A DNA stretch of 51,854 bases, taken from Shigella phage JK16. The DNA lies in the sequence record MK962751, one strand, 5' to 3'. Below the pieces are notes generated by a model, which ran no database searches, was not told the DNA's origin, and was given only the letters and a program-made list of their open reading frames with translations. This document shows, piece by piece, positions 1,550 through 19,872 of this stretch (positions are counted from its first letter, which is position 1; every line of letters starts with the position of its first letter). A program made the position numbers and the translations under genes.

Positions 1550-3547
1550 ATGATTCCAAATATCGAAAAACAAATATCAGCATTAGGCGAGGCAGTAATA
1601 AAAAGCATCCAAGAGCGATTCACGGTTGGCAATATAGTGCCTTATCCTTATCAGTGCGTTGCGTATGCAGAGATCGCAAAGCGCATGAAAAACTATGAGC
1701 ATCCTTTCTTTGTTAAGGCTTCTGTATCGGCTGGCAAAACATTGATGTTTGCGATGGTTGCGGCGCAATGCCGCAAAATGGGATTGAAAATGATGGTCCT
1801 TGCTCGCCAGGCTGAAATTGTTGATCAGGATTCGGAAGAGATCAGCAATCTTGGCGTGCCAAACTCAATCTATTGCGCCGGACTGAAAACAAAAAGCGCA
1901 TACTTTCCGATCGTAGTCGGTTCTGAGGGCACTGTAGTAAACGGATTGTTTAAGTCGTTAGGTGATTATGTTCCGCACGTTATCGGTATTGATGAATGTC
2001 ACCAGGTGGATTGGGAGGATCTCGCGGACGCGATAGAAAATAATGAATCTTACCAGCAGATGACCACTAAGAAGGATTTGCCAGTACTGATTGGAGAAGA
2101 ACAGCAATTTGATTCCAATGGCGATCCAATGTTCGGAACAGGGCGCACACAGTACACCGTAATAATCATGGAAATGATGCGCAGGTGTCGCGAGGCATAC
2201 GGGCACGAATTGCGAATATTCGGCATGACTGGATCTGAGTTTCGCGGCGTGGTTCCAATACTGGTTGAAGATAAGAACAAAAAGGGATTCTGGCGTGAGC
2301 AAGTAACTAACATAGACACAAACTACTTAATCAAATTCGGTTCGGTAGTGCCAACAAATTTCGGCGACGTCGGCGACCTGGGGTATGACCTTTCAGAGTT
2401 CGAGGCCAGTAGCGAGGACGGCGTTTCAGACTTTGACGCTAAAACATTGCGCAAGATGGAAGAAAAGATCCATCAAGACGCAACAATGACACAGAAAATC
2501 ATGGCTAAAGTCCATGAGATATGCAAAGACAGGAACGGAGTTTTAGTTACATGCGCAGGGGAAAGGCACTGCAAGGAGGCCGCCGCCGCACTGCCGCCAG
2601 GCGTTGAATACAGGATCATAACTGGCAAGACTGGAGATAATCAGCGTAAAGAGTGGCTGAGGGAGGCATACGAGGGAAAAGTAAAATACATCTTCCAGGT
2701 ACAGGCGCTTACCACTGGCGTTAACGTTCCGTTTTGGGATACTTCGGTAATACTGAGAAAGATAGGATCTCTAACATTGCTTATCCAGCTTTTGGGGCGC
2801 GGCATGCGACTGCTTAAGCAATGGCACATTGAACAGGGATTCAAGAAAAAAGATCATCTTGTATTGGATTTTGCAGGTACTATGGATGAGTTAGGTGATT
2901 TGTATTTCGATCCAATCCTTGAGCAAGCGCAATTCCAAAAGAGATTTACAAACGGGAAAGAGCCTAAGACTTGTCCGATATGTGGAACGCTAAACAGCTT
3001 TTACGCTCGCCGATGTATGCACGTAGACGATAACGGGAAGCGATGTGAGCATTTTTGGACTTACAGAATTTGCGAGGACCAGGTAGATCCGAGAACGAAA
3101 AAGATAATCAAGCGCGGTTGTGGAACAAAAAACGACGTAGTGGCGAGAGTATGCCGTTGTTGCGATATTTCTCTTGTCGATCCTAACGAGAAGTTAAGCG
3201 GTAAGCACTACACCAAAAACGATTGGTGCAACGTTAAATCTTTCCGCGTTGATATGACGAAAAACCAGAAAGGAATTATTTTTTGCTATGAGCTTGAGGC
3301 CAACGGCGATACGTTCAAGGCATACGAAAGATTTTTCCCTGAGTCAGAAAGCAACATTTGCCGGACGATATGGAGAAAAATAGCATTGCAGCACATACCG
3401 GATCGCAAGATTGCTGGTATGGTGGCGAGCTATAGAAATGCTCGTAAAATAATGTCATACGCTCATCACATCATGCCGCCTGTACGCGTAACGCATCGCA
3501 AAAACGGCAAAGGTGAGGATAACATTGCAAAACGGGAGTTTGTTTAA
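1550..3547 (+). CDS. ATP-dependent DNA helicase (superfamily 2) with C-terminal Cys-rich zinc-ribbon region
   Basis: Walker A SAGKT, DExH-like IDECHQ, C-terminal CPICG...C...C clusters. Confidence 0.7.
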   Translation: MIPNIEKQISALGEAVIKSIQERFTVGNIVPYPYQCVAYAEIAKRMKNYEHPFFVKASVSAGKTLMFAMVAAQCRKMGLKMMVLARQAEIVDQDSEEISNLGVPNSIYCAGLKTKSAYFPIVVGSEGTVVNGLFKSLGDYVPHVIGIDECHQVDWEDLADAIENNESYQQMTTKKDLPVLIGEEQQFDSNGDPMFGTGRTQYTVIIMEMMRRCREAYGHELRIFGMTGSEFRGVVPILVEDKNKKGFWREQVTNIDTNYLIKFGSVVPTNFGDVGDLGYDLSEFEASSEDGVSDFDAKTLRKMEEKIHQDATMTQKIMAKVHEICKDRNGVLVTCAGERHCKEAAAALPPGVEYRIITGKTGDNQRKEWLREAYEGKVKYIFQVQALTTGVNVPFWDTSVILRKIGSLTLLIQLLGRGMRLLKQWHIEQGFKKKDHLVLDFAGTMDELGDLYFDPILEQAQFQKRFTNGKEPKTCPICGTLNSFYARRCMHVDDNGKRCEHFWTYRICEDQVDPRTKKIIKRGCGTKNDVVARVCRCCDISLVDPNEKLSGKHYTKNDWCNVKSFRVDMTKNQKGIIFCYELEANGDTFKAYERFFPESESNICRTIWRKIALQHIPDRKIAGMVASYRNARKIMSYAHHIMPPVRVTHRKNGKGEDNIAKREFV

Positions 3548-3966
3548 TGGCTATAACTGATAAAGGAGATTATCTTGAGTTTTACGAAAGAGATCCAACC
3601 GACACGAGAAAGGAAGTTAATCACCAGATAGATAGCTTTCAGTGGTTGACTTATGCTCATCCTTATTTGCTAGCTTGGCATACGGTAAACGAGAATGAGA
3701 AGTCGAAAGTAACGGCGATGATTGATCAGCAGTCCGGCTTGGTTAAGGGGGTAAGCGATTTCATCATCCTGATTGGTTCAAACGGAAAATACCCCTTTGC
3801 AGCGATTGAGATCAAACGAGTGAATAAATCAGGCAAGGGGAAAGCATCACCAGTCAGCGATGAACAAAAGGCTTTTTTGCGTCGCGTTCGCAGCTTAGGA
3901 GGATTCGCTGCGGTCGCCTACGGATTTAATCAGTTTAAGTTAGCTATTGAATACATGCTTAAATAG
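3547..3966 (+). CDS. VRR-NUC domain nuclease
   Basis: GVSDFIIL...AAIEIKR...Q pattern typical of VRR-NUC (PD-(D/E)XK) fold; start overlaps helicase stop. Confidence 0.6.
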   Translation: MAITDKGDYLEFYERDPTDTRKEVNHQIDSFQWLTYAHPYLLAWHTVNENEKSKVTAMIDQQSGLVKGVSDFIILIGSNGKYPFAAIEIKRVNKSGKGKASPVSDEQKAFLRRVRSLGGFAAVAYGFNQFKLAIEYMLK

Positions 3967-4046: not shown

Positions 4047-4772
4047 ATGGCTAAAGATATTTTAGATAAAGACACCCATGACGCATTTGTTAGCTTTGAG
4101 CAGTTGGAGAGAGAAACGTTTATAGGAAATGCTCTTGCAACTGGAGGCCATTACCAGGCAGTAAAGCCAAATCAATATTATAAGGTAAGCGGCAACCGAT
4201 ACGCTGGAAGCACTACGCCGGACGTTGTGCGCGATATGTGGAGCACACCTCAAGAGATCGTGGAGTGGATGGAATCAGAATTTGGCGAATACGATCTCGA
4301 CGCGGCAGCAAGCCAGGAAAACGCAGTTTGCGAGAAGTTCTATAGCAAGGAAACAAACTGCTTAAAGCGTTGGTGGGGTAGCAACAAGCACGTATGGCTT
4401 AACCCGCCGTACAGCAACCCAACTCCATTTATCAAGAAAGCAATTGAGCAAATGGAGCACAACAACCAAATTGATGTTTTGTTGCCATCCGACAACTCTA
4501 CAGCATGGTTTTATGAGGCGCAGAAAAACGCGGCTGAAATCATCTGGATCACTGGCGAGGTTTACGAAGAGGGGGGAGTGGAATATTCCCGCACCGGAAG
4601 AATCGCCTTTGTGTCTGGATTGACTGGCGAGCCTGTACAGGGCAACAATAAGGGAAGCGTGATTTTTGTCATGCGCAAACTTAAAGAAGGCGAGGAGCAG
4701 AAAACGCGATACGTTAAGATCAGCGATATTTGCCCCTCTGTAACCGAACGCCGCGCGCGCAAACGGAGCTAA
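4047..4772 (+). CDS. dam: DNA N6-adenine methyltransferase (phage Dam family)
   Basis: DLDAAAS ... WLNPPYS catalytic motif (NPPY); start chosen 8 nt after GGAG. Confidence 0.8.
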   Translation: MAKDILDKDTHDAFVSFEQLERETFIGNALATGGHYQAVKPNQYYKVSGNRYAGSTTPDVVRDMWSTPQEIVEWMESEFGEYDLDAAASQENAVCEKFYSKETNCLKRWWGSNKHVWLNPPYSNPTPFIKKAIEQMEHNNQIDVLLPSDNSTAWFYEAQKNAAEIIWITGEVYEEGGVEYSRTGRIAFVSGLTGEPVQGNNKGSVIFVMRKLKEGEEQKTRYVKISDICPSVTERRARKRS

Positions 4773-14795: not shown

Positions 14796-15210
14796 TGCAG
14801 GGGAGATAGTGAAACCTTCCCCTCTTGCCTCACTTTCCCGCCTGGCTGTCAGTGGTTGTTATGTTCCGTTCCCGCCTGTTCTTTTGTTGACCTTCCGCAA
14901 AATACGATAACAAAAAATAACAAACAATACCTATATAATACATTGAAAAATAAGGATTATTTATTTATATGTATCTATATATTATCTTTTGTTATCTTGG
15001 TTATTGTGGTATTTGGTGGGGGTATATAGTTTTTGTGTATCTATATGTGTGTATGGGTATGTAGGGGCATATATATCTATATGGCACTTTCCGCGAGAAA
15101 ACTTCGATAACAGCCAATGATAACATTGATTTATAAGGAAAAATAACGCCAATATTGTTATTGTGCCACCATATAAAATTGATAAAACACGCGGGAACAA
15201 GAAAAAACAG

Positions 15211-15239
15211 TTGACACATTAAATAGCATTATTGATAAT
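15211..15239 (+). promoter_or_regulatory. sigma70-type promoter, copy 1 (TTGACA, 17 nt, GATAAT)
   Basis: Consensus -35, 17 nt spacer, near-consensus -10, 30 nt upstream of ATG. Confidence 0.6.
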
Positions 15240-15268
15240 GCCGACACCTAACAACCAGGAGGTAGAAA

Positions 15269-15475
15269 ATGAGCGAGCAATCATTAACTGACACGCTGCG
15301 CCGTGCAGCTATTATGCTGGCTAATGGCGAGGAAGAGGCGATCAAGATTCCTGACGCGTATTTGCAGGTCCACATGTTCGGCAAGAAGTCGGCAAGCAAT
15401 CCGGCGGCCTACATTCGCCAGATCATGAGTCGAGTTCCAGAAGTCGCCGAGCGTTCCCGCCTGTTCTTTTGTTGA
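15269..15475 (+). pseudogene. truncated duplicate of the 5-prime part of the first early gene
   Basis: First 61 codons identical to the 15854 gene, then runs out of the repeat unit into a short unrelated tail. Confidence 0.6.
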
Positions 15476-15795
15476 CCTTCCGCAAAATACGATAACAAAA
15501 AATAACAAACAATACCTATATAATACATTGAAAAATAAGGATTATTTATTTATATGTATCTATATATTATCTTTTGTTATCTTGGTTATTGTGGTATTTG
15601 GTGGGGGTATATAGTTTTTGTGTATCTATATGTGTGTATGGGTATGTAGGGGCATATATATCTATATGGCACTTTCCGCGAGAAAACTTCGATAACAGCC
15701 AATGATAACATTGATTTATAAGGAAAAATAACGCCAATATTGTTATTGTGCCACCATATAAAATTGATAAAACACGCGGGAACAAGAAAAAACAG

Positions 15796-15824
15796 TTGAC
15801 ACATTAAATAGCATTATTGATAAT
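15796..15824 (+). promoter_or_regulatory. sigma70-type promoter, copy 2 (TTGACA, 17 nt, GATAAT)
   Basis: Identical to copy 1, upstream of intact gene. Confidence 0.6.
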
Positions 15825-15853
15825 GCCGACACCTAACAACCAGGAGGTAGAAA

Positions 15854-16318
15854 ATGAGCGAGCAATCATTAACTGACACGCTGCGCCGTGCAGCTATTAT
15901 GCTGGCTAATGGCGAGGAAGAGGCGATCAAGATTCCTGACGCGTATTTGCAGGTCCACATGTTCGGCAAGAAGTCGGCAAGCAATCCGGCGGCCTACATT
16001 CGCCAGATCATGAGTCGAGTTCCAGAAGTCGCCGAGCGGGGGCGCGTATCCGTTACCCGTGGAGTTTACGGGCCGGAAGATGAAAACTTCGGTAGCACTT
16101 TCTACGAGGTGCGCATTGTTGAAGGACGTCGCAAGGTTTACAACAAAGAGGCACTGGAAAGGGCAGTACGCCAGGCTAAGCGCAAGGTTGCAGAGGCGAT
16201 CATTGATATGTCACCAAACCTAGCAAACTATGCGCCGGAAGAGTATGAAACATTATCAAAGGCCGTCGCTGACTTTCACGCGATGATCAAAAAAACTTTC
16301 CTGGAGGATGAGCAATGA
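15854..16318 (+). CDS. hypothetical early protein
   Basis: 154 aa; AGGAGG RBS; first gene after strong promoter. Confidence 0.55.
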   Translation: MSEQSLTDTLRRAAIMLANGEEEAIKIPDAYLQVHMFGKKSASNPAAYIRQIMSRVPEVAERGRVSVTRGVYGPEDENFGSTFYEVRIVEGRRKVYNKEALERAVRQAKRKVAEAIIDMSPNLANYAPEEYETLSKAVADFHAMIKKTFLEDEQ

Positions 16319-16587
16319 AAAAGGCGTTAATCGGTGTTTTGGTGGCAATGGCATTCCTGACCGGATGTAAAGAAGATGGCGCGCATGTTGGCAATGTGCA
16401 GATGGCTAACCCTGGCGATGACTACAACGTAAGGGAGCTATTCACCGCTGACGGATGCACTGTTTACCGATTCTATGACGATCGCACTGTTTACTTCACC
16501 AACTGCAAGGGAACTACTAGCTGGGAAGTGTCGAAAAGCAATGGCAAAGGCACGAAGACAGAACATATGACCGTCGAGACAAAATAG
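16315..16587 (+). CDS. lipoprotein, possible superinfection-exclusion (Cor/Llp-like)
   Basis: Signal peptide with lipobox LTGC; 90 aa with three Cys. Confidence 0.5.
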   Translation: MKKALIGVLVAMAFLTGCKEDGAHVGNVQMANPGDDYNVRELFTADGCTVYRFYDDRTVYFTNCKGTTSWEVSKSNGKGTKTEHMTVETK

Positions 16588-16627: not shown

Positions 16628-16832
16628 ACACACATAGACGGGCGGCAAGGATTGCTGCGGGAGAGGAGCGACGCAGGGGCTTGATCGAAGTGTCAGGATT
16701 CCCAACCGTGAGGCCAGAACTATCACACTCGCCACCAGGCAGAACGCTAGATAGGTCACTGAACTGAGGCTACCGACGAAGTGAAGCCCGTCACCAAAGA
16801 TTAAACGGTTATTTATGTGAAAGGGGTTAATG

Positions 16833-17012
16833 ATGGATAAGATCATCAAAATGAGCGAAGTCAAGCCGGGAATGATGGTTAAATTTGCTGGCAAATATCG
16901 CCTAGTGCTGGATAACTGCCGCAAAGAGAACATTCTTACAATTCGTGTAAATGGCAAGGCGCAGCTATTCGCCCCTAACGCAGATATTGACGTTGAAGTT
17001 AGAATTAAGTAA
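16833..17012 (+). CDS. hypothetical protein
   Basis: 59 aa; AAAGGGG RBS. Confidence 0.4.
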   Translation: MDKIIKMSEVKPGMMVKFAGKYRLVLDNCRKENILTIRVNGKAQLFAPNADIDVEVRIK

Positions 17013-17027
17013 TTAGGAGAAATCACC

Positions 17028-18152
17028 ATGTTAAAACTTGCTGACATTAAATTCCCGATCACCTTCGAATCTCGCGGCATTGGTCATTACATTTTTACTG
17101 ATGAAAAAACATGCCATAAGGTTAATATGAATAGCGACAAACTAAGCCCATCAACAATGGAGATTGAACACTTTATTGATGCGCACAATACGCAGTACAA
17201 CGCACTTAAAGACTATGGCTATGCAATGCCAGGCTACACATGTTTGCACTACAAGCCATATAAAGGCCAGGTGTTGCCAGTAAAAGAGAACAAGCAATTC
17301 CTGCTGGATAGCGAGGAGATTGTATACCCGATCACCTTTGAAACGGCAGGAAATAGCGTTGTGACTTTCACATCTCGCGACAACGGCACATATGGAAACG
17401 GCTTGAGAACAAGTTATAATGTTGATTACTTCGTCGCCTGTCATAACATGGCTAATCCTAACAACGATAAGAACAAGGTGTACTACGTGCGCGATATTGA
17501 AAGGCAGTGGCCTAAGAAAGACTCCCAGGCAGAGATTCCGATGGTTCATATGAAAACCTGCGACTACAAAAAGCTGTGGTGCTTAAGTCTGGACAATATC
17601 AAGTATCCGATCACGTTCCGCACGACTGGTAAGTCAACGATTCGCTACACATCGCGCGAAAATGGCGTTTATAGCGATGGTACGAAATCAGGGTTGAAAG
17701 TTGATTTCTTTGTCAACGGTCACAATAGATACAATCCGCACAACGAAGAGGATAAAGTGTACTACGTGGAAGACATTACAAAACACTTATTTGGAGAAAC
17801 TCCATTCGGCGGCGGTAAGACGTCAATTCAAAAAATCATTGGCGATGAGATCCACAAAGCGGCTGCCGAAATGAAAGCTCCTGGAGGCTGGCGTATTGAC
17901 AAGAGCGCATTTGCAAATCAAGAAATCGTAACGCAGGGCGCAATTGAAGATATGCCAGTTGCAGCCACTCTAAAAGGAGTCCGGCTTGATGACGGCACCT
18001 GGTATGAAGTAACGGCTACACCAAAGACGATCGAGATTCATGATGACGTTGTTATCCTTCTGCTTCACTACGGCGGCTATAAAAACCGGACGATTGCAGG
18101 TGAGATCAGCATTAAGCGCGGAACGATGATTAAGTGGAAGGTGAAGATTTGA
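17028..18152 (+). CDS. protein with three tandem repeats of a ~60-residue unknown domain
   Basis: Repeats start KFPITFESRG / VYPITFETAG / KYPITFRTTG and end HN..NP.N.(D/E)..KVYYV.DI; AGGAG RBS. Confidence 0.6.
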   Translation: MLKLADIKFPITFESRGIGHYIFTDEKTCHKVNMNSDKLSPSTMEIEHFIDAHNTQYNALKDYGYAMPGYTCLHYKPYKGQVLPVKENKQFLLDSEEIVYPITFETAGNSVVTFTSRDNGTYGNGLRTSYNVDYFVACHNMANPNNDKNKVYYVRDIERQWPKKDSQAEIPMVHMKTCDYKKLWCLSLDNIKYPITFRTTGKSTIRYTSRENGVYSDGTKSGLKVDFFVNGHNRYNPHNEEDKVYYVEDITKHLFGETPFGGGKTSIQKIIGDEIHKAAAEMKAPGGWRIDKSAFANQEIVTQGAIEDMPVAATLKGVRLDDGTWYEVTATPKTIEIHDDVVILLLHYGGYKNRTIAGEISIKRGTMIKWKVKI

Positions 18153-18228
18153 GTTTGCTCACTGCGGCGCACGTCGCCGCATGGATCGGATTGTTTTCCT
18201 ACCTGTTTAGCTTTTATTGAGGTGAGAG

Positions 18229-18381
18229 ATGGCTACCTGGATTTTGCTGATTCTTATGATTGATGGCGGCGTTGACCATATCGAAATGAATAGCCAGCAA
18301 TCTTGCATTGAGGCACGAGAGCAGATCAAGAACAACAACAGTTTTTATGCGTACACTCACACGCTATGTATTAAGAAATAG
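18229..18381 (+). CDS. small membrane protein (50 aa), paralog of 19670 gene
   Basis: Found by manual translation; GAGGTGAGAG RBS; N-terminal hydrophobic helix, conserved C..EAR.Q and C; stop inside motif. Confidence 0.35.
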   Translation: MATWILLILMIDGGVDHIEMNSQQSCIEAREQIKNNNSFYAYTHTLCIKK

Positions 18382-18420
18382 CACTTTTTGTTAAAACTCA
18401 AATGTGGGGCCAGGTATAAT
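18379..18420 (+). promoter_or_regulatory. motif-class promoter (motif, hairpin GGCCA..TGGCC containing TATAAT)
   Basis: -10 hexamer 17 nt after motif. Confidence 0.45.
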
Positions 18421-18450: not shown

Positions 18451-18672
18451 ATGTACATTAAAAATAAGATGAAATGCGTTTCCGTTAACTATGCTTGCTC
18501 TGGCATGTTCAAGCCTGGCGAAATCTATACGGCGCAAAAACTGAAAACATCAACCGGATCTTTTTACGTGAGCAATAGTAAGGGGTATCGCATGTTCCTG
18601 AACGGCGGCGAAGGCACTAAGGTTATGGCACACGCTATGGTAATGGCTGAATTTGAGGAAGTGAAACAATGA
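18451..18672 (+). CDS. hypothetical protein, tandem paralog A
   Basis: AAGGAG RBS; shares motifs with next gene. Confidence 0.45.
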   Translation: MYIKNKMKCVSVNYACSGMFKPGEIYTAQKLKTSTGSFYVSNSKGYRMFLNGGEGTKVMAHAMVMAEFEEVKQ

Positions 18673-18914
18673 TCATTGAAAACAATTTTCTTTGCGTTAA
18701 GAGCAATAGACCATTCTTCACACCTGGCAAGGTGTACCAGGGCAAGAAGGACACAAGAGATGGTCACTCTTATCATGTTCACTGCAACAACGGATACAAG
18801 TTTTACCTTAACGGCGAGAATGGAACTGAGATTGTTGCGTTTGAAAACGTAGTTGCCGAGTTCGAGCAGATTACAGACGCGGAATTTGAGGAAGTGAAAG
18901 ATGAAAACAAATAA
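18669..18914 (+). CDS. hypothetical protein, tandem paralog B
   Basis: Overlapping start; shares motifs with previous gene. Confidence 0.45.
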   Translation: MIIENNFLCVKSNRPFFTPGKVYQGKKDTRDGHSYHVHCNNGYKFYLNGENGTEIVAFENVVAEFEQITDAEFEEVKDENK

Positions 18915-19122
18915 GCGCGTCAAGCACAGGTTTACTGATAACCACGGCGACGCGATTGATGTATACAAGTTCGGCGATCGCGTGTTTATTGATGGCACGT
19001 TTGAAGGTGGTCGTAGGCCGGATTTTAGGTCGATACTTACCGTTGACCAAGTGCGCAAGCTGGCAGATAAGTTAAATGATCTGGCAGATGAAATAGAATA
19101 CAAGCAAATCCATTTTAATTGA
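18901..19122 (+). CDS. hypothetical protein
   Basis: 73 aa ORF. Confidence 0.4.
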   Translation: MKTNKRVKHRFTDNHGDAIDVYKFGDRVFIDGTFEGGRRPDFRSILTVDQVRKLADKLNDLADEIEYKQIHFN

Positions 19123-19133
19123 TAGGTTTTATA

Positions 19134-19673
19134 ATGAAAAAATACACTTTCGAACTATGGGGCAAGAAGTACGAATTAATCACCAGCAAGCCGATTGTTA
19201 TCGTTGACCTGGACGGCACACTATCGGACGGATCGCATCGTTTGCATTTGCTGCCAACTGAAAGCTTGCACCTTACGGAATCGTGGCGCGAGTTTAACAG
19301 GGCCGCAGCAGGAGATTCACCGATTAAAAGCACGATCGCGATTGTTAACGGTTTGTGGGTGTCGGGATTTGCCATCGTCATCTTGACCGGACGCAGCGAC
19401 GAGGTGCGCTATGAAACCTGCAAATGGTTGAATGAGAGCGGCGTGAAGTTTGACGAAATCATCATGCGCCGCCAGGAGGACAACCGAAAGGATACGGTTA
19501 TTAAAGAAGAAGCCTTGCGCGCTATTGGCCTGGACAATATTGTTTGCGCCTTTGACGATTCGCCGAACGTTGTTAAGCACTTCCGCAGCCTGGGAATCAC
19601 AACCTATCAGGTCACGGAATACGACAAGCCACACGCTCACCTGCAATCTCACGGCGTGGAGTGTTTAAAATGA
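19134..19673 (+). CDS. HAD-superfamily phosphatase (nucleotidase-like)
   Basis: HAD motif I IVIVDLDGTLSDG; later TGRSD and acidic motif CAFDDSPN. Confidence 0.55.
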   Translation: MKKYTFELWGKKYELITSKPIVIVDLDGTLSDGSHRLHLLPTESLHLTESWREFNRAAAGDSPIKSTIAIVNGLWVSGFAIVILTGRSDEVRYETCKWLNESGVKFDEIIMRRQEDNRKDTVIKEEALRAIGLDNIVCAFDDSPNVVKHFRSLGITTYQVTEYDKPHAHLQSHGVECLK

Positions 19674-19831
19674 CTTGGTTGCTTTTAATCTTTGTCACAA
19701 GTTACAACTCCGCAGCTATTGAGTCGCAGGAGTTCCACGGCGAATCAAGATGCCAGGAAGCGCGAAAGCAAGTTATTCTCCACATGTCAGATAGTGGGAA
19801 GGATGTAACAGCGTTATGCGTTCGTAAATAG
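19670..19831 (+). CDS. small membrane protein (53 aa), paralog of 18229 gene
   Basis: Found by manual translation; start overlaps HAD stop (ATGA); hydrophobic N-terminus; stop inside motif. Confidence 0.35.
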   Translation: MTWLLLIFVTSYNSAAIESQEFHGESRCQEARKQVILHMSDSGKDVTALCVRK

Positions 19832-19872
19832 CACTTTTTGCAAAAAACAGATCATCGGGCTTGCTGTATAGT
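19829..19872 (+). promoter_or_regulatory. motif-class promoter (motif variant TTGCAAAAAAC, hairpin GGGCTT..AAGCCC containing TATAGT)
   Basis: 19 nt gap to TATAGT; leader CAACAACAAACGAGGATTAAATC ATG. Confidence 0.45.

What the first reader, a model, noticed from the sequence alone, without database searches (positions are those of the whole stretch)
17028..18381. Unknown protein with three tandem ~60-residue repeats plus a coupled small membrane peptide
The 374 aa product has three internal repeats, each beginning (K/V)(F/Y)PITF(E/R)(S/T).G and ending HN..NP.N.(D/E)..KVYYV.DI, followed by a distinct C-terminal domain. I do not recognise this domain from any characterised family. Directly downstream is a 50 aa peptide (18229-18381) with a hydrophobic N-terminus and a conserved Cys pair. 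A paralogous 53 aa peptide (19670-19831) is translationally coupled to the HAD phosphatase gene. Such repeat protein plus membrane peptide arrangements in an early accessory region are candidates for host-interaction or anti-defence functions.
Basis: partly seen in the sequence, partly recalled or inferred. Interest (0 to 1): 0.65.

Follow-up and report, generated by a model that had tools for sequence, protein, structure and literature searches.

The report
Three-repeat allele of T1p70 family
This is a real but ordinary accessory gene of a T1-like coliphage: a rare three-repeat version of the uncharacterised T1p70 (PHROG 7116) protein, built only of small beta-rich binding-type modules, often followed by a 50-residue companion protein that does not look like a membrane peptide.

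Summary
The window is a T1-like siphophage (Drexlerviridae, Warwickvirus). ORF 17028-18152 is a genuine gene under purifying selection (dN/dS 0.20-0.38). It has three homologous ~67-aa modules (aa 1-67, 93-159, 186-252) and a conserved ~75-aa C-terminal beta-barrel. It belongs to PHROG 7116, the family of phage T1 ORF T1p70. That family is confined to Drexlerviridae: 42 clusters among 1.84 billion proteins, 225 phage records. Members carry one repeat (T1), two (most relatives, 297 aa) or, rarely, three. The extra repeat here is a clean 231-nt net cassette.

The 50-aa gene and its 53-aa paralog are both PHROG 5579. Where the 50-aa type occurs it lies directly after the T1p70-type gene: a 1-nt overlap in T1, a 76-nt spacer here. 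About two thirds of close relatives lack it. Its hydrophobic stretch is only 11-12 residues, and the first Cys is Phe in the commonest variant, so "membrane peptide" is unsupported.

Most likely this is a non-enzymatic, multivalent binding protein acting in the infected cell. The target is unknown and an anti-defence role is untested.

The parts
17015..17019 (+). Shine-Dalgarno AGGAG, 8 nt before the ATG of the repeat-protein gene
   Evidence: read directly
17028..18152 (+). T1p70-family (PHROG 7116) gene, 374 aa, three-repeat allele
   Evidence: (phrog_7116 E 2.1e-92); dN/dS 0.20-0.38 against four homologs
17028..17228 (+). repeat module R1 (aa 1-67), the diverged copy: keeps MLKL.DIKFPITF and HN, lacks NP.N/KVYYV
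   Evidence: HMM hit E 6.8e-13; BLASTP against R2/R3 27-31% identity
17282..17525 (+). 244-nt cassette that replaces 13 nt of the common 297-aa alleles (net +231 nt = 77 codons); it carries R2. Flanks are 95-96% identical to phage ityhuna.
   Evidence: R2 is found at 97% identity or more only in P0001 and phage BabyEgg
17304..17504 (+). repeat module R2 (aa 93-159)
   Evidence: HMM hit E 6.9e-28; 50% aa and 59% nt identity to R3
17583..17783 (+). repeat module R3 (aa 186-252), modelled as beta-beta-beta-alpha
   Evidence: HMM hit E 4.7e-29; AlphaFold block pLDDT 86-93 over most of the module
17922..18149 (+). conserved C-terminal small beta-barrel (aa ~299-374; motifs IEDMP.GA, IEVHDD, GE..IKRGT)
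18153..18228 (+). 76-nt spacer with a 7-bp GC hairpin (18163-18169 / 18175-18181) and a GAGGTGA ribosome-binding site (18219-18225)
   Evidence: fold no better than shuffles, z 0.13; conserved in ityhuna and tonnikala, absent with the peptide gene in swan01
18229..18381 (+). 50-aa PHROG 5579 protein, a frequent but optional companion of T1p70-type genes
18391..18420 (+). promoter-like site TTAAAA-18-TATAAT just after the 50-aa gene, a possible start of the next transcription unit (consensus match only)
   Evidence: conserved module boundary ATAGCAC...TTG.TAAAAC
19119..19673 (+). HAD-type phosphatase (PNKP phosphatase domain only), whose stop overlaps the start of the 53-aa paralog
   Evidence: (PF25109 E 3.7e-21)
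19670..19831 (+). 53-aa PHROG 5579 paralog, ATGA overlap with the HAD gene
   Evidence: the same arrangement is seen in swan01, BabyEgg, Henu7 and Motto

Best explanation
ORF 17028-18152 is a functional, non-structural accessory gene of a T1-like phage. It is a rare three-module allele of the T1p70 / PHROG 7116 family.

The protein is a string of small beta-rich modules joined by linkers. There are three copies of a ~67-aa beta-beta-beta-alpha module with a conserved FPITF...HN..NP.N surface motif. A conserved ~75-aa SH3-like barrel follows. No catalytic signature is present.

The most likely way it works (inferred, not shown) is as a non-enzymatic, multivalent binding protein in the cytoplasm of the infected cell. 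The constant C-terminal barrel would provide one fixed interaction, with a partner or with itself. The N-terminal modules would provide a second interaction, and their number (1, 2 or 3) is changed by gain or loss of whole-module cassettes.

The 50-aa PHROG 5579 protein is an optional companion. It is more likely a small soluble alpha/beta protein than a membrane peptide. It is made from the same transcript, and in T1 by coupled translation.

The target of the large protein is unknown.
For: Shown:
- Phage identity and synteny.
- Family membership: phrog_7116 E 2e-92.
- The family is narrow: 42 clusters at 50% identity among 1.84e9 proteins, and 225 phage records, almost all Escherichia, Shigella, Salmonella or Citrobacter phages; every one inspected is Drexlerviridae.
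- Repeat number is 1, 2 or 3. Counted over the P0001-P0162 hit clusters plus T1, BabyEgg and the window: 25 with one repeat, 125 with two (120 of them 296-298 aa), 3 with three.
- R2 is a clean cassette within 95-96% identical flanks.
- The two domain types shuffle independently (P0131, P0152, P0161, P0162).
- Purifying but relaxed selection, dN/dS 0.20-0.38.
- AlphaFold model with 34 sequences, pLDDT 78, both modules ~90.
- The only nearly invariant columns are one Pro in the repeat and E/M/P/A/E/L/E in the barrel. The HDD triplet is not conserved.
- No hits in Pfam, NCBIfam, PADLOC or PDB sequences.
- The homolog (CDS24) is not among the 22 proteins found in the Sfin-1 virion by LC-MS/MS (PMC6714547).
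- Companion-gene adjacency.
Against: - No experiment or informative domain fusion points to a target or even a compartment.
- 'Binding protein' is largely an argument from the absence of enzymatic features.
- The linkers and inter-domain geometry are poorly predicted (pTM 0.51). The full-length model failed (pLDDT 37).
- Early timing of expression is assumed from position, not measured.
Confidence: 0.45

Rival explanations
1. One reading: the repeat protein and a small membrane peptide form a two-part host-interaction or anti-defence module. The peptide inserts into the inner membrane.
For: - Accessory position, variable presence and fairly fast evolution: dN/dS up to 0.38.
- Repeat-number polymorphism.
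- Conserved adjacency of the two genes across Tunavirinae and Tempevirinae.
- A related phage has a small non-essential SH3-like protein, Gp54-Bas11, that is sensed by the CapRel defence system. This shows that such accessory barrels do meet host immunity (PMC11578894).
Against: - The hydrophobic run is 11-12 residues and the Kyte-Doolittle 19-residue maximum is 0.85-1.22, so no transmembrane helix is predicted.
- The first Cys is Phe in the commonest variant.
- About 58 of ~90 close relatives, including swan01 and SECphi27, lack the 50-aa gene.
- The paralog is coupled to an unrelated phosphatase gene.
- No match to PADLOC models. No anti-defence library was available.
- The SECphi27 homolog of Gp54-Bas11 is gene 19, not next to the T1p70-type gene gp30.
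Confidence: 0.2
2. A nucleic-acid- or ribosome-binding protein. The SH3-like, KOW-like or chromo-like barrels bind RNA, DNA or the translation machinery to redirect host gene expression.
For: - Foldseek's best matches include the DNA-binding Cren7 and chromo/Tudor barrels.
- Tandem small barrels are a common nucleic-acid-binding design (general knowledge).
Against: - The protein is near neutral (pI 8.07, net charge +2.6). The individual modules have pI 5.7-8.2, with no basic surface evident from sequence.
- No conserved Arg/Lys cluster other than the KR of IKRGT.
Confidence: 0.15
3. A virion or morphogenesis protein, for example a decoration or fibre accessory built of repeated beta modules.
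For: - A weak Pfam hit to Gp53-like_C, a tail-fibre C-terminus (E 0.094, 13.7 bits against a cut-off of 24.9).
- Repeated beta modules occur in fibres and decoration proteins (general knowledge).
Against: - The Pfam hit is far below the cut-off.
- The gene lies among small accessory genes upstream of the phosphatase, dNMP kinase and terminase genes, not in the head or tail modules.
- It is not among the Sfin-1 virion proteins.
- The gene is split by a frameshift in the viable isolate tonnikala.
- BFVD structural matches are only to uncharacterised Drexlerviridae proteins.
Confidence: 0.05

Closest known systems
T1p70, hypothetical protein of phage T1 (MK213796 2904-3389), and PHROG 7116 / pVOG VOG7646, VOG4991
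   Same: Same family. The C-terminal barrel and R3 align over aa 186-373 (37.6% identity, tblastn E 9e-29). The N-terminal MLKL.DI.FP motif is the same. The genomic position is the same, in the accessory block upstream of the PNKP-type phosphatase. T1 also has a PHROG 5579 gene immediately downstream.
   Different: T1p70 has one repeat (161 aa) and the window protein has three (374 aa). In T1 the small gene overlaps the stop codon by 1 nt; here a 76-nt spacer intervenes. Neither has a known function.
The common 297-aa two-repeat alleles of Warwickvirus and other Tempevirinae (e.g. swan01 gp54, SECphi27 gp30, ityhuna gp4)
   Same: 83-96% identical outside the cassette, with the same R1, R3, linker and barrel.
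   Different: They lack the 77-codon R2 cassette. Only P0001 and phage BabyEgg share it. BabyEgg also has a different, longer linker before the barrel and an unrelated 67-aa transmembrane protein downstream.
Gp54 of phage Bas11, the CapRel-SJ46 trigger (PMC11578894)
   Same: A small, non-essential accessory protein of unknown function from a related T1-like phage. Its crystal structure is an SH3-like beta-barrel. It shows how such modules can interact with host immunity.
SH3-like small barrels of translation proteins (EF-P domain I, ribosomal protein L2 C-terminal domain, eIF5A N-domain) and chromo-barrel/Tudor domains

Membership tests
PHROG 7116 / T1p70 family | Significant match to the family profile | tested here: met
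   phrog_7116 E 2.1e-92, 308.8 bits, three stretches, best aa 185-373 against profile 1-173/173
PHROG 7116 / T1p70 family | Conserved C-terminal barrel with the IEDMP.GA, IEVHDD and GE..IKRGT motifs | tested here: met
   alignments A2 and A3; E123, M125, P126, A129, E152 (all numbered from aa 185) are nearly invariant in both, and I151, L161, E175 in A2
PHROG 7116 / T1p70 family | One or more N-terminal FPITF...HN..NP.N modules, starting at the first residues (MLKL.DI.FP) | tested here: met
   three HMM hits in the window protein; one to three in family members
PHROG 7116 / T1p70 family | Position in the accessory gene block upstream of the PNKP-type phosphatase in Drexlerviridae genomes | tested here: met
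   ityhuna, swan01, T1, BabyEgg, Sazh, HCF1, SECphi27 and a Logan contig
PHROG 5579 small proteins | Profile match of both small ORFs | tested here: met
   E 5.7e-22 (50 aa) and 3.5e-9 (53 aa); a purpose-built HMM finds only these two in the six-frame translation of the window
Translationally coupled gene pair | Stop codon of the upstream gene overlaps or abuts the start codon of the downstream gene | tested here: met
   HAD gene and 53-aa gene: ATGA at 19670-19673. T1p70 and its 49-aa gene in T1 share nt 3389.
Translationally coupled gene pair | The same, for the 374-aa gene and the 50-aa gene in this window | tested here: not met
   a 76-nt spacer and a separate GAGGTGA site
Single-pass membrane peptide | A hydrophobic segment long enough to span the bilayer (about 18 or more residues; Kyte-Doolittle 19-residue mean above ~1.6) | tested here: not met
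   longest uncharged run 11-12 residues; maximum 19-residue mean 0.85-1.22 in six of the eight family members (the script stopped before Henu7 and Motto). No dedicated transmembrane or signal-peptide predictor was available.
Disulfide-bonded secreted peptide | An invariant Cys pair | tested here: not met
   the pair is present in the other seven of eight aligned members, but the most abundant cluster P0164 (267 contigs) has Phe at the first position
SH3-like small beta-barrel fold | Strong structural match to solved SH3-like barrels | tested here: inconclusive
Pfam PF21882 Gp53-like_C (tail fibre C-terminus) | Score above the gathering threshold | tested here: not met
   13.7 bits against a cut-off of 24.9, E 0.094
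Known defence-system protein families (the only defence-related library available) | Match to a curated model | tested here: not met
   no PADLOC hit for any of nine proteins of the region. PADLOC holds defence models, not anti-defence models.
Known anti-defence protein families | Match to a curated anti-defence model | not testable with these tools
   no anti-defence library was offered; no such search could be run

The most novel reading that the evidence does not exclude
T1p70-family proteins, with or without their PHROG 5579 companion, are a previously unrecognised class of modular phage effector. A new beta-beta-beta-alpha repeat module binds a host factor, for instance an immune sensor or a component of the expression machinery. 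Cassette gain or loss of modules tunes avidity or specificity in an arms race.
Probability: 0.15. Interest if true: 0.6.

Novelty: new variant of a known kind. Interest (0 to 1): 0.3.

Why it matters
Phage T1 is a classical model, yet its left-arm accessory genes have no assigned functions. This analysis defines a family confined to Drexlerviridae that has two portable modules and no Pfam entry. It documents repeat-number polymorphism by cassette exchange, and it shows a conserved but dispensable pairing with a small protein. That gives a defined pair of genes to delete or express in T1, SECphi27 or the BASEL Drexlerviridae phages, for example in host-takeover or counter-defence screens. On present evidence, however, it is one more uncharacterised accessory protein of a kind that fills phage early regions. 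It is not a surprising system.

Tried and rejected
- **Sequence families.** Pfam, NCBIfam and PADLOC scans of the protein and eight neighbours gave only sub-threshold noise for the target protein and the two small ORFs: Gp53-like_C at E 0.094, SigY at E 0.026. Three neighbours do have real Pfam domains (HAD_PNKP, DUF4884, DUF7174).
- **Pfam scan of all 34 diverse family members.** No family was hit by more than one member.
- **Profile search of PDB sequences.** With A1 there was nothing. With A3 there was only Nova-1 at E 0.27, which is chance.
- **Informative domain fusions.** P0131, P0145, P0148, P0152, P0161 and P0162 have no Pfam domains. The neighbourhood of P0152 is the same accessory block.
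- **Homology of the C-terminal barrel to the neighbouring small ORFs.** hhalign against 16830-17012, 18451-18672, 18669-18914 and 18901-19122 gave probability of 1% or less.
- **Full-length structure prediction** with nine close homologs failed (pLDDT 37).
- **AFDB50 Foldseek** was unavailable.
With the single protein it returned only 8 IMG/VR loci.
- **The spacer hairpin.** It folds no better than shuffled sequence (z 0.13) and has no adjacent T-run, so it was not called a terminator.
- **Literature.** No paper assigns a function to T1p70. The only mention is a genome table. The phage accessory-gene screen preprint does not mention T1-like phages. Gp54-Bas11 is not adjacent to the family.
- **Search for the 50-aa peptide in the 5.8-billion-protein set.** It gave only 4 clusters, because such short genes are rarely called.

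Full report
**What the window is.**
The region 16800-20200 matches 133 phage records. The best is Escherichia phage ityhuna at 97.9% identity. Close relatives include swan01, tuinn, tonn and tonnikala, all T1-like siphophages (Drexlerviridae, Tempevirinae, Warwickvirus) of about 51 kb. The finding lies in a run of small plus-strand genes that starts at a promoter-like site at 15796. The order is: DUF7174 protein, a lipoprotein, a 60-aa protein, the 374-aa protein, the 50-aa protein, two small paralogs, a 73-aa protein, a HAD phosphatase, the 53-aa protein and a dNMP-kinase-like gene. In related contigs the small terminase subunit follows.

**Checking the observation.**
ORF 17028-18152 is as described and has an AGGAG site 8 nt upstream. 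The repeats are real.
- R2 (aa 96-160) and R3 (aa 188-252) are 50% identical over 64 residues, E 2e-25.
- R1 matches them at 27-31% identity, E 3e-4 and 5e-6.
- An HMM built from R2, R3 and single-repeat homologs, without R1, recovers aa 1-67 (E 7e-13), 93-159 (7e-28) and 186-252 (5e-29).

So there are three ~67-aa modules spaced about 93 residues apart. R1 keeps KFPITFESRG and HN but not the NP.N...KVYYV.DI ending. The gene evolves under purifying but fairly relaxed selection, with dN/dS 0.20-0.38 against ityhuna, swan01, SECphi27 and BabyEgg.

**The family.**
No Pfam, NCBIfam or PADLOC model matches, and no profile search of PDB sequences finds anything. The protein does hit PHROG 7116 (unknown function) at E 2e-92. 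That profile is 173 positions long, which corresponds to one repeat plus the C-terminal domain.

An exhaustive HMMER scan of 1.84 billion cluster representatives finds only 42 clusters. tblastn finds 225 phage records, almost all Escherichia, Shigella, Salmonella and Citrobacter phages; every record I inspected is Drexlerviridae. One of them is phage T1 itself (MK213796 2904-3389, 161 aa). The Sazh annotation names this protein T1p70.

Repeat number varies across the family.
- One repeat in T1-type proteins of 143-192 aa.
- Two repeats in 120 of the listed 296-298-aa clusters.
- Three repeats only in the window, in cluster P0001 and in phage BabyEgg.

Against ityhuna, the window gene differs by a clean replacement of 13 nt with 244 nt (17282-17525, net +77 codons). 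The flanks are 95-96% identical. R2 is only 50-57% identical to any other repeat in the family and 59% identical to R3 at the DNA level. It is therefore an old, divergent module moved as a cassette, not a recent duplication.

The two domain types also occur apart. The barrel is found with unrelated N-termini in P0131, P0161 and P0162. The repeat is found with an unrelated C-terminus in P0152. None of these partner regions has a Pfam domain.

**Structure.**
A full-length model from nine close homologs failed (pLDDT 37). A model of aa 185-374 with 34 diverse sequences reached mean pLDDT 78, with both modules near 90. The repeat is three strands followed by a helix that carries the HN..NP.N motif. 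The C-terminal domain is a six- to seven-stranded small barrel.
- Foldseek against the PDB gave nothing significant. The best were the TIP60 chromo-barrel at E 0.13, Cren7, Tudor and chromodomains.
- BFVD returned only uncharacterised Drexlerviridae proteins.

These are fold-level resemblances only, and the tools do not say which module produced them. No catalytic-looking motif is conserved; the HDD of IEVHDD varies. The protein is near neutral, pI 8.07.

**The small proteins.**
ORFs 18229-18381 (50 aa) and 19670-19831 (53 aa) both match PHROG 5579. They are the only two such ORFs in the window. The 53-aa gene overlaps the stop of the HAD gene as ATGA. The same arrangement is seen in swan01, BabyEgg, Henu7 and Motto.

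The 50-aa gene is separated from the 374-aa gene by 76 nt and has its own GAGGTGA site. The hairpin in the spacer is no more stable than shuffled sequence.

The pairing is nevertheless conserved in evolution.
- In all 16 phage records listed in both tblastn searches, the peptide gene lies immediately downstream on the same strand.
- In the Tunavirinae records, including T1, the matched residues lie 2 nt apart, which corresponds to the 1-nt stop/start overlap annotated in T1. In Tempevirinae there is a spacer of about 80 nt.
- Contiguous DNA matches number 32 for the window type and 55 for the T1 type.

The pair is not obligatory. About 58 of ~90 close relatives lack the spacer and peptide, including swan01 and SECphi27. 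Tlsvirus and Sertoctavirus members have other small genes there.

The 'membrane' label is not supported. The uncharged N-terminal run is 11-12 residues and the best 19-residue hydropathy mean is 0.85-1.22. The Cys pair is common but not invariant: cluster P0164, on 267 contigs, has Phe at the first position. The conserved pattern is a hydrophobic strand, GG, a second strand (.IEF), a helix (C.EAR) and a final C.KK strand. It reads more like a small soluble alpha/beta protein. That is my inference.

**Function.**
Nothing identifies a target. Evidence against a virion role:
- The gene's position, outside the head and tail modules.
- The absence of the Sfin-1 homolog (CDS24) from that phage's virion proteome (PMC6714547).
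- A frameshift splitting the gene in the viable isolate tonnikala, although a sequencing error cannot be excluded there.

The best-supported reading is a non-enzymatic, multivalent binding protein acting inside the infected cell, with the number of N-terminal modules adjustable by cassette exchange. Counter-defence is possible. A related phage's small SH3-like accessory protein, Gp54-Bas11, is directly sensed by CapRel-SJ46 (PMC11578894). That protein is unrelated in sequence and not adjacent to the T1p70-type gene. No paper in the library assigns a function to T1p70.

**Verdict.**
The peptide is not a membrane peptide, the two genes are not coupled here, and the pair is not obligatory. The object is a repeat-number variant of a catalogued but uncharacterised family confined to Drexlerviridae. 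It is of modest interest, mainly as a defined candidate for T1 accessory-gene genetics and as a family that deserves a domain entry.

Noticed in passing
window 14867-15453 and 15452-16038: A perfect 587-bp tandem direct duplication with a 2-nt CG overlap at the junction. It carries a strong promoter-like site (TTGACA-17-GATAAT at 15211 and 15796) and the first 62 codons of the DUF7174 gene, which creates a truncated extra ORF at 15269-15475. In 14 related GenBank phages the segment is single-copy and the junction is absent. It is either a real duplication unique to this genome or an assembly artefact.
   Followed up: partly
window 18377-18395 and 19827-19845; L003 (T1) ~3535-3560; L002 (swan01) ~4120-4145: The motif AAATAGCAC-N5-TTG follows the stop codon of both PHROG 5579 genes and of T1's peptide gene. 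In swan01, which lacks the 50-aa gene, it follows the T1p70-type gene directly. It looks like a conserved module boundary beside a promoter-like site (TTAAAA-18-TATAAT, 18391-18420). Accessory cassettes may be exchanged at such a boundary.
   Followed up: partly
window 19119-19673: The gene annotated in relatives as 'polynucleotide kinase' or 'kinase-phosphatase' has only the HAD-type PNKP phosphatase domain (PF25109, aa 26-167 of 184). No kinase domain is present, so the public product name is probably an over-annotation.
   Followed up: no
window 16315-16587: A 90-aa protein with a lipoprotein signal (MKKALIGVLVAMAFLTGC) and a DUF4884 match (E 1e-7, 31.9 bits against a cut-off of 30). It is a possible surface or periplasmic accessory lipoprotein in the same transcription unit.
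   Followed up: no
window 18451-18672 and 18669-18914: Two adjacent small paralogous genes (both phrog_9122) with overlapping stop and start. They are unrelated to the T1p70 barrel by hhalign.
   Followed up: partly
L021 (phage tonnikala NC_049817) 618-1510 and 2258-2968: The T1p70-type gene is split by a frameshift into 204-aa and 93-aa ORFs. The HAD phosphatase carries an extra ~55-residue C-terminal extension in place of the 53-aa gene.
   Followed up: partly
proteins P0131, P0121, P0146: P0131 is a natural in-frame fusion of the N-terminal half of the ORF upstream of T1p70 in T1 (2344-2832) with the T1p70 barrel, joined at a shared IKP. P0121 (375 aa) and P0146 (729 aa, 8 stretches) look like concatemer or frameshift artefacts of metagenome assembly.
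   Followed up: no
phage records MG065636, MG065641, MG065643, MG065649, MG065685: Records named 'Campylobacter phage' with host C. jejuni carry T1-like coliphage sequence with a clear match to this gene (61% protein identity in tblastn, 85-87% DNA identity over the barrel region). They are probably contaminating E. coli phages or mislabelled records.
   Followed up: no
L004 (phage BabyEgg PP925846) 828-2224: The only GenBank three-repeat relative has a different, longer, helix-rich linker before the barrel (398 aa). It is followed, with an ATGA overlap, by an unrelated 67-aa protein with a genuine transmembrane segment. In Sazh and SRT8 a different two-transmembrane small protein sits beside the T1p70-type gene.
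   Followed up: partly
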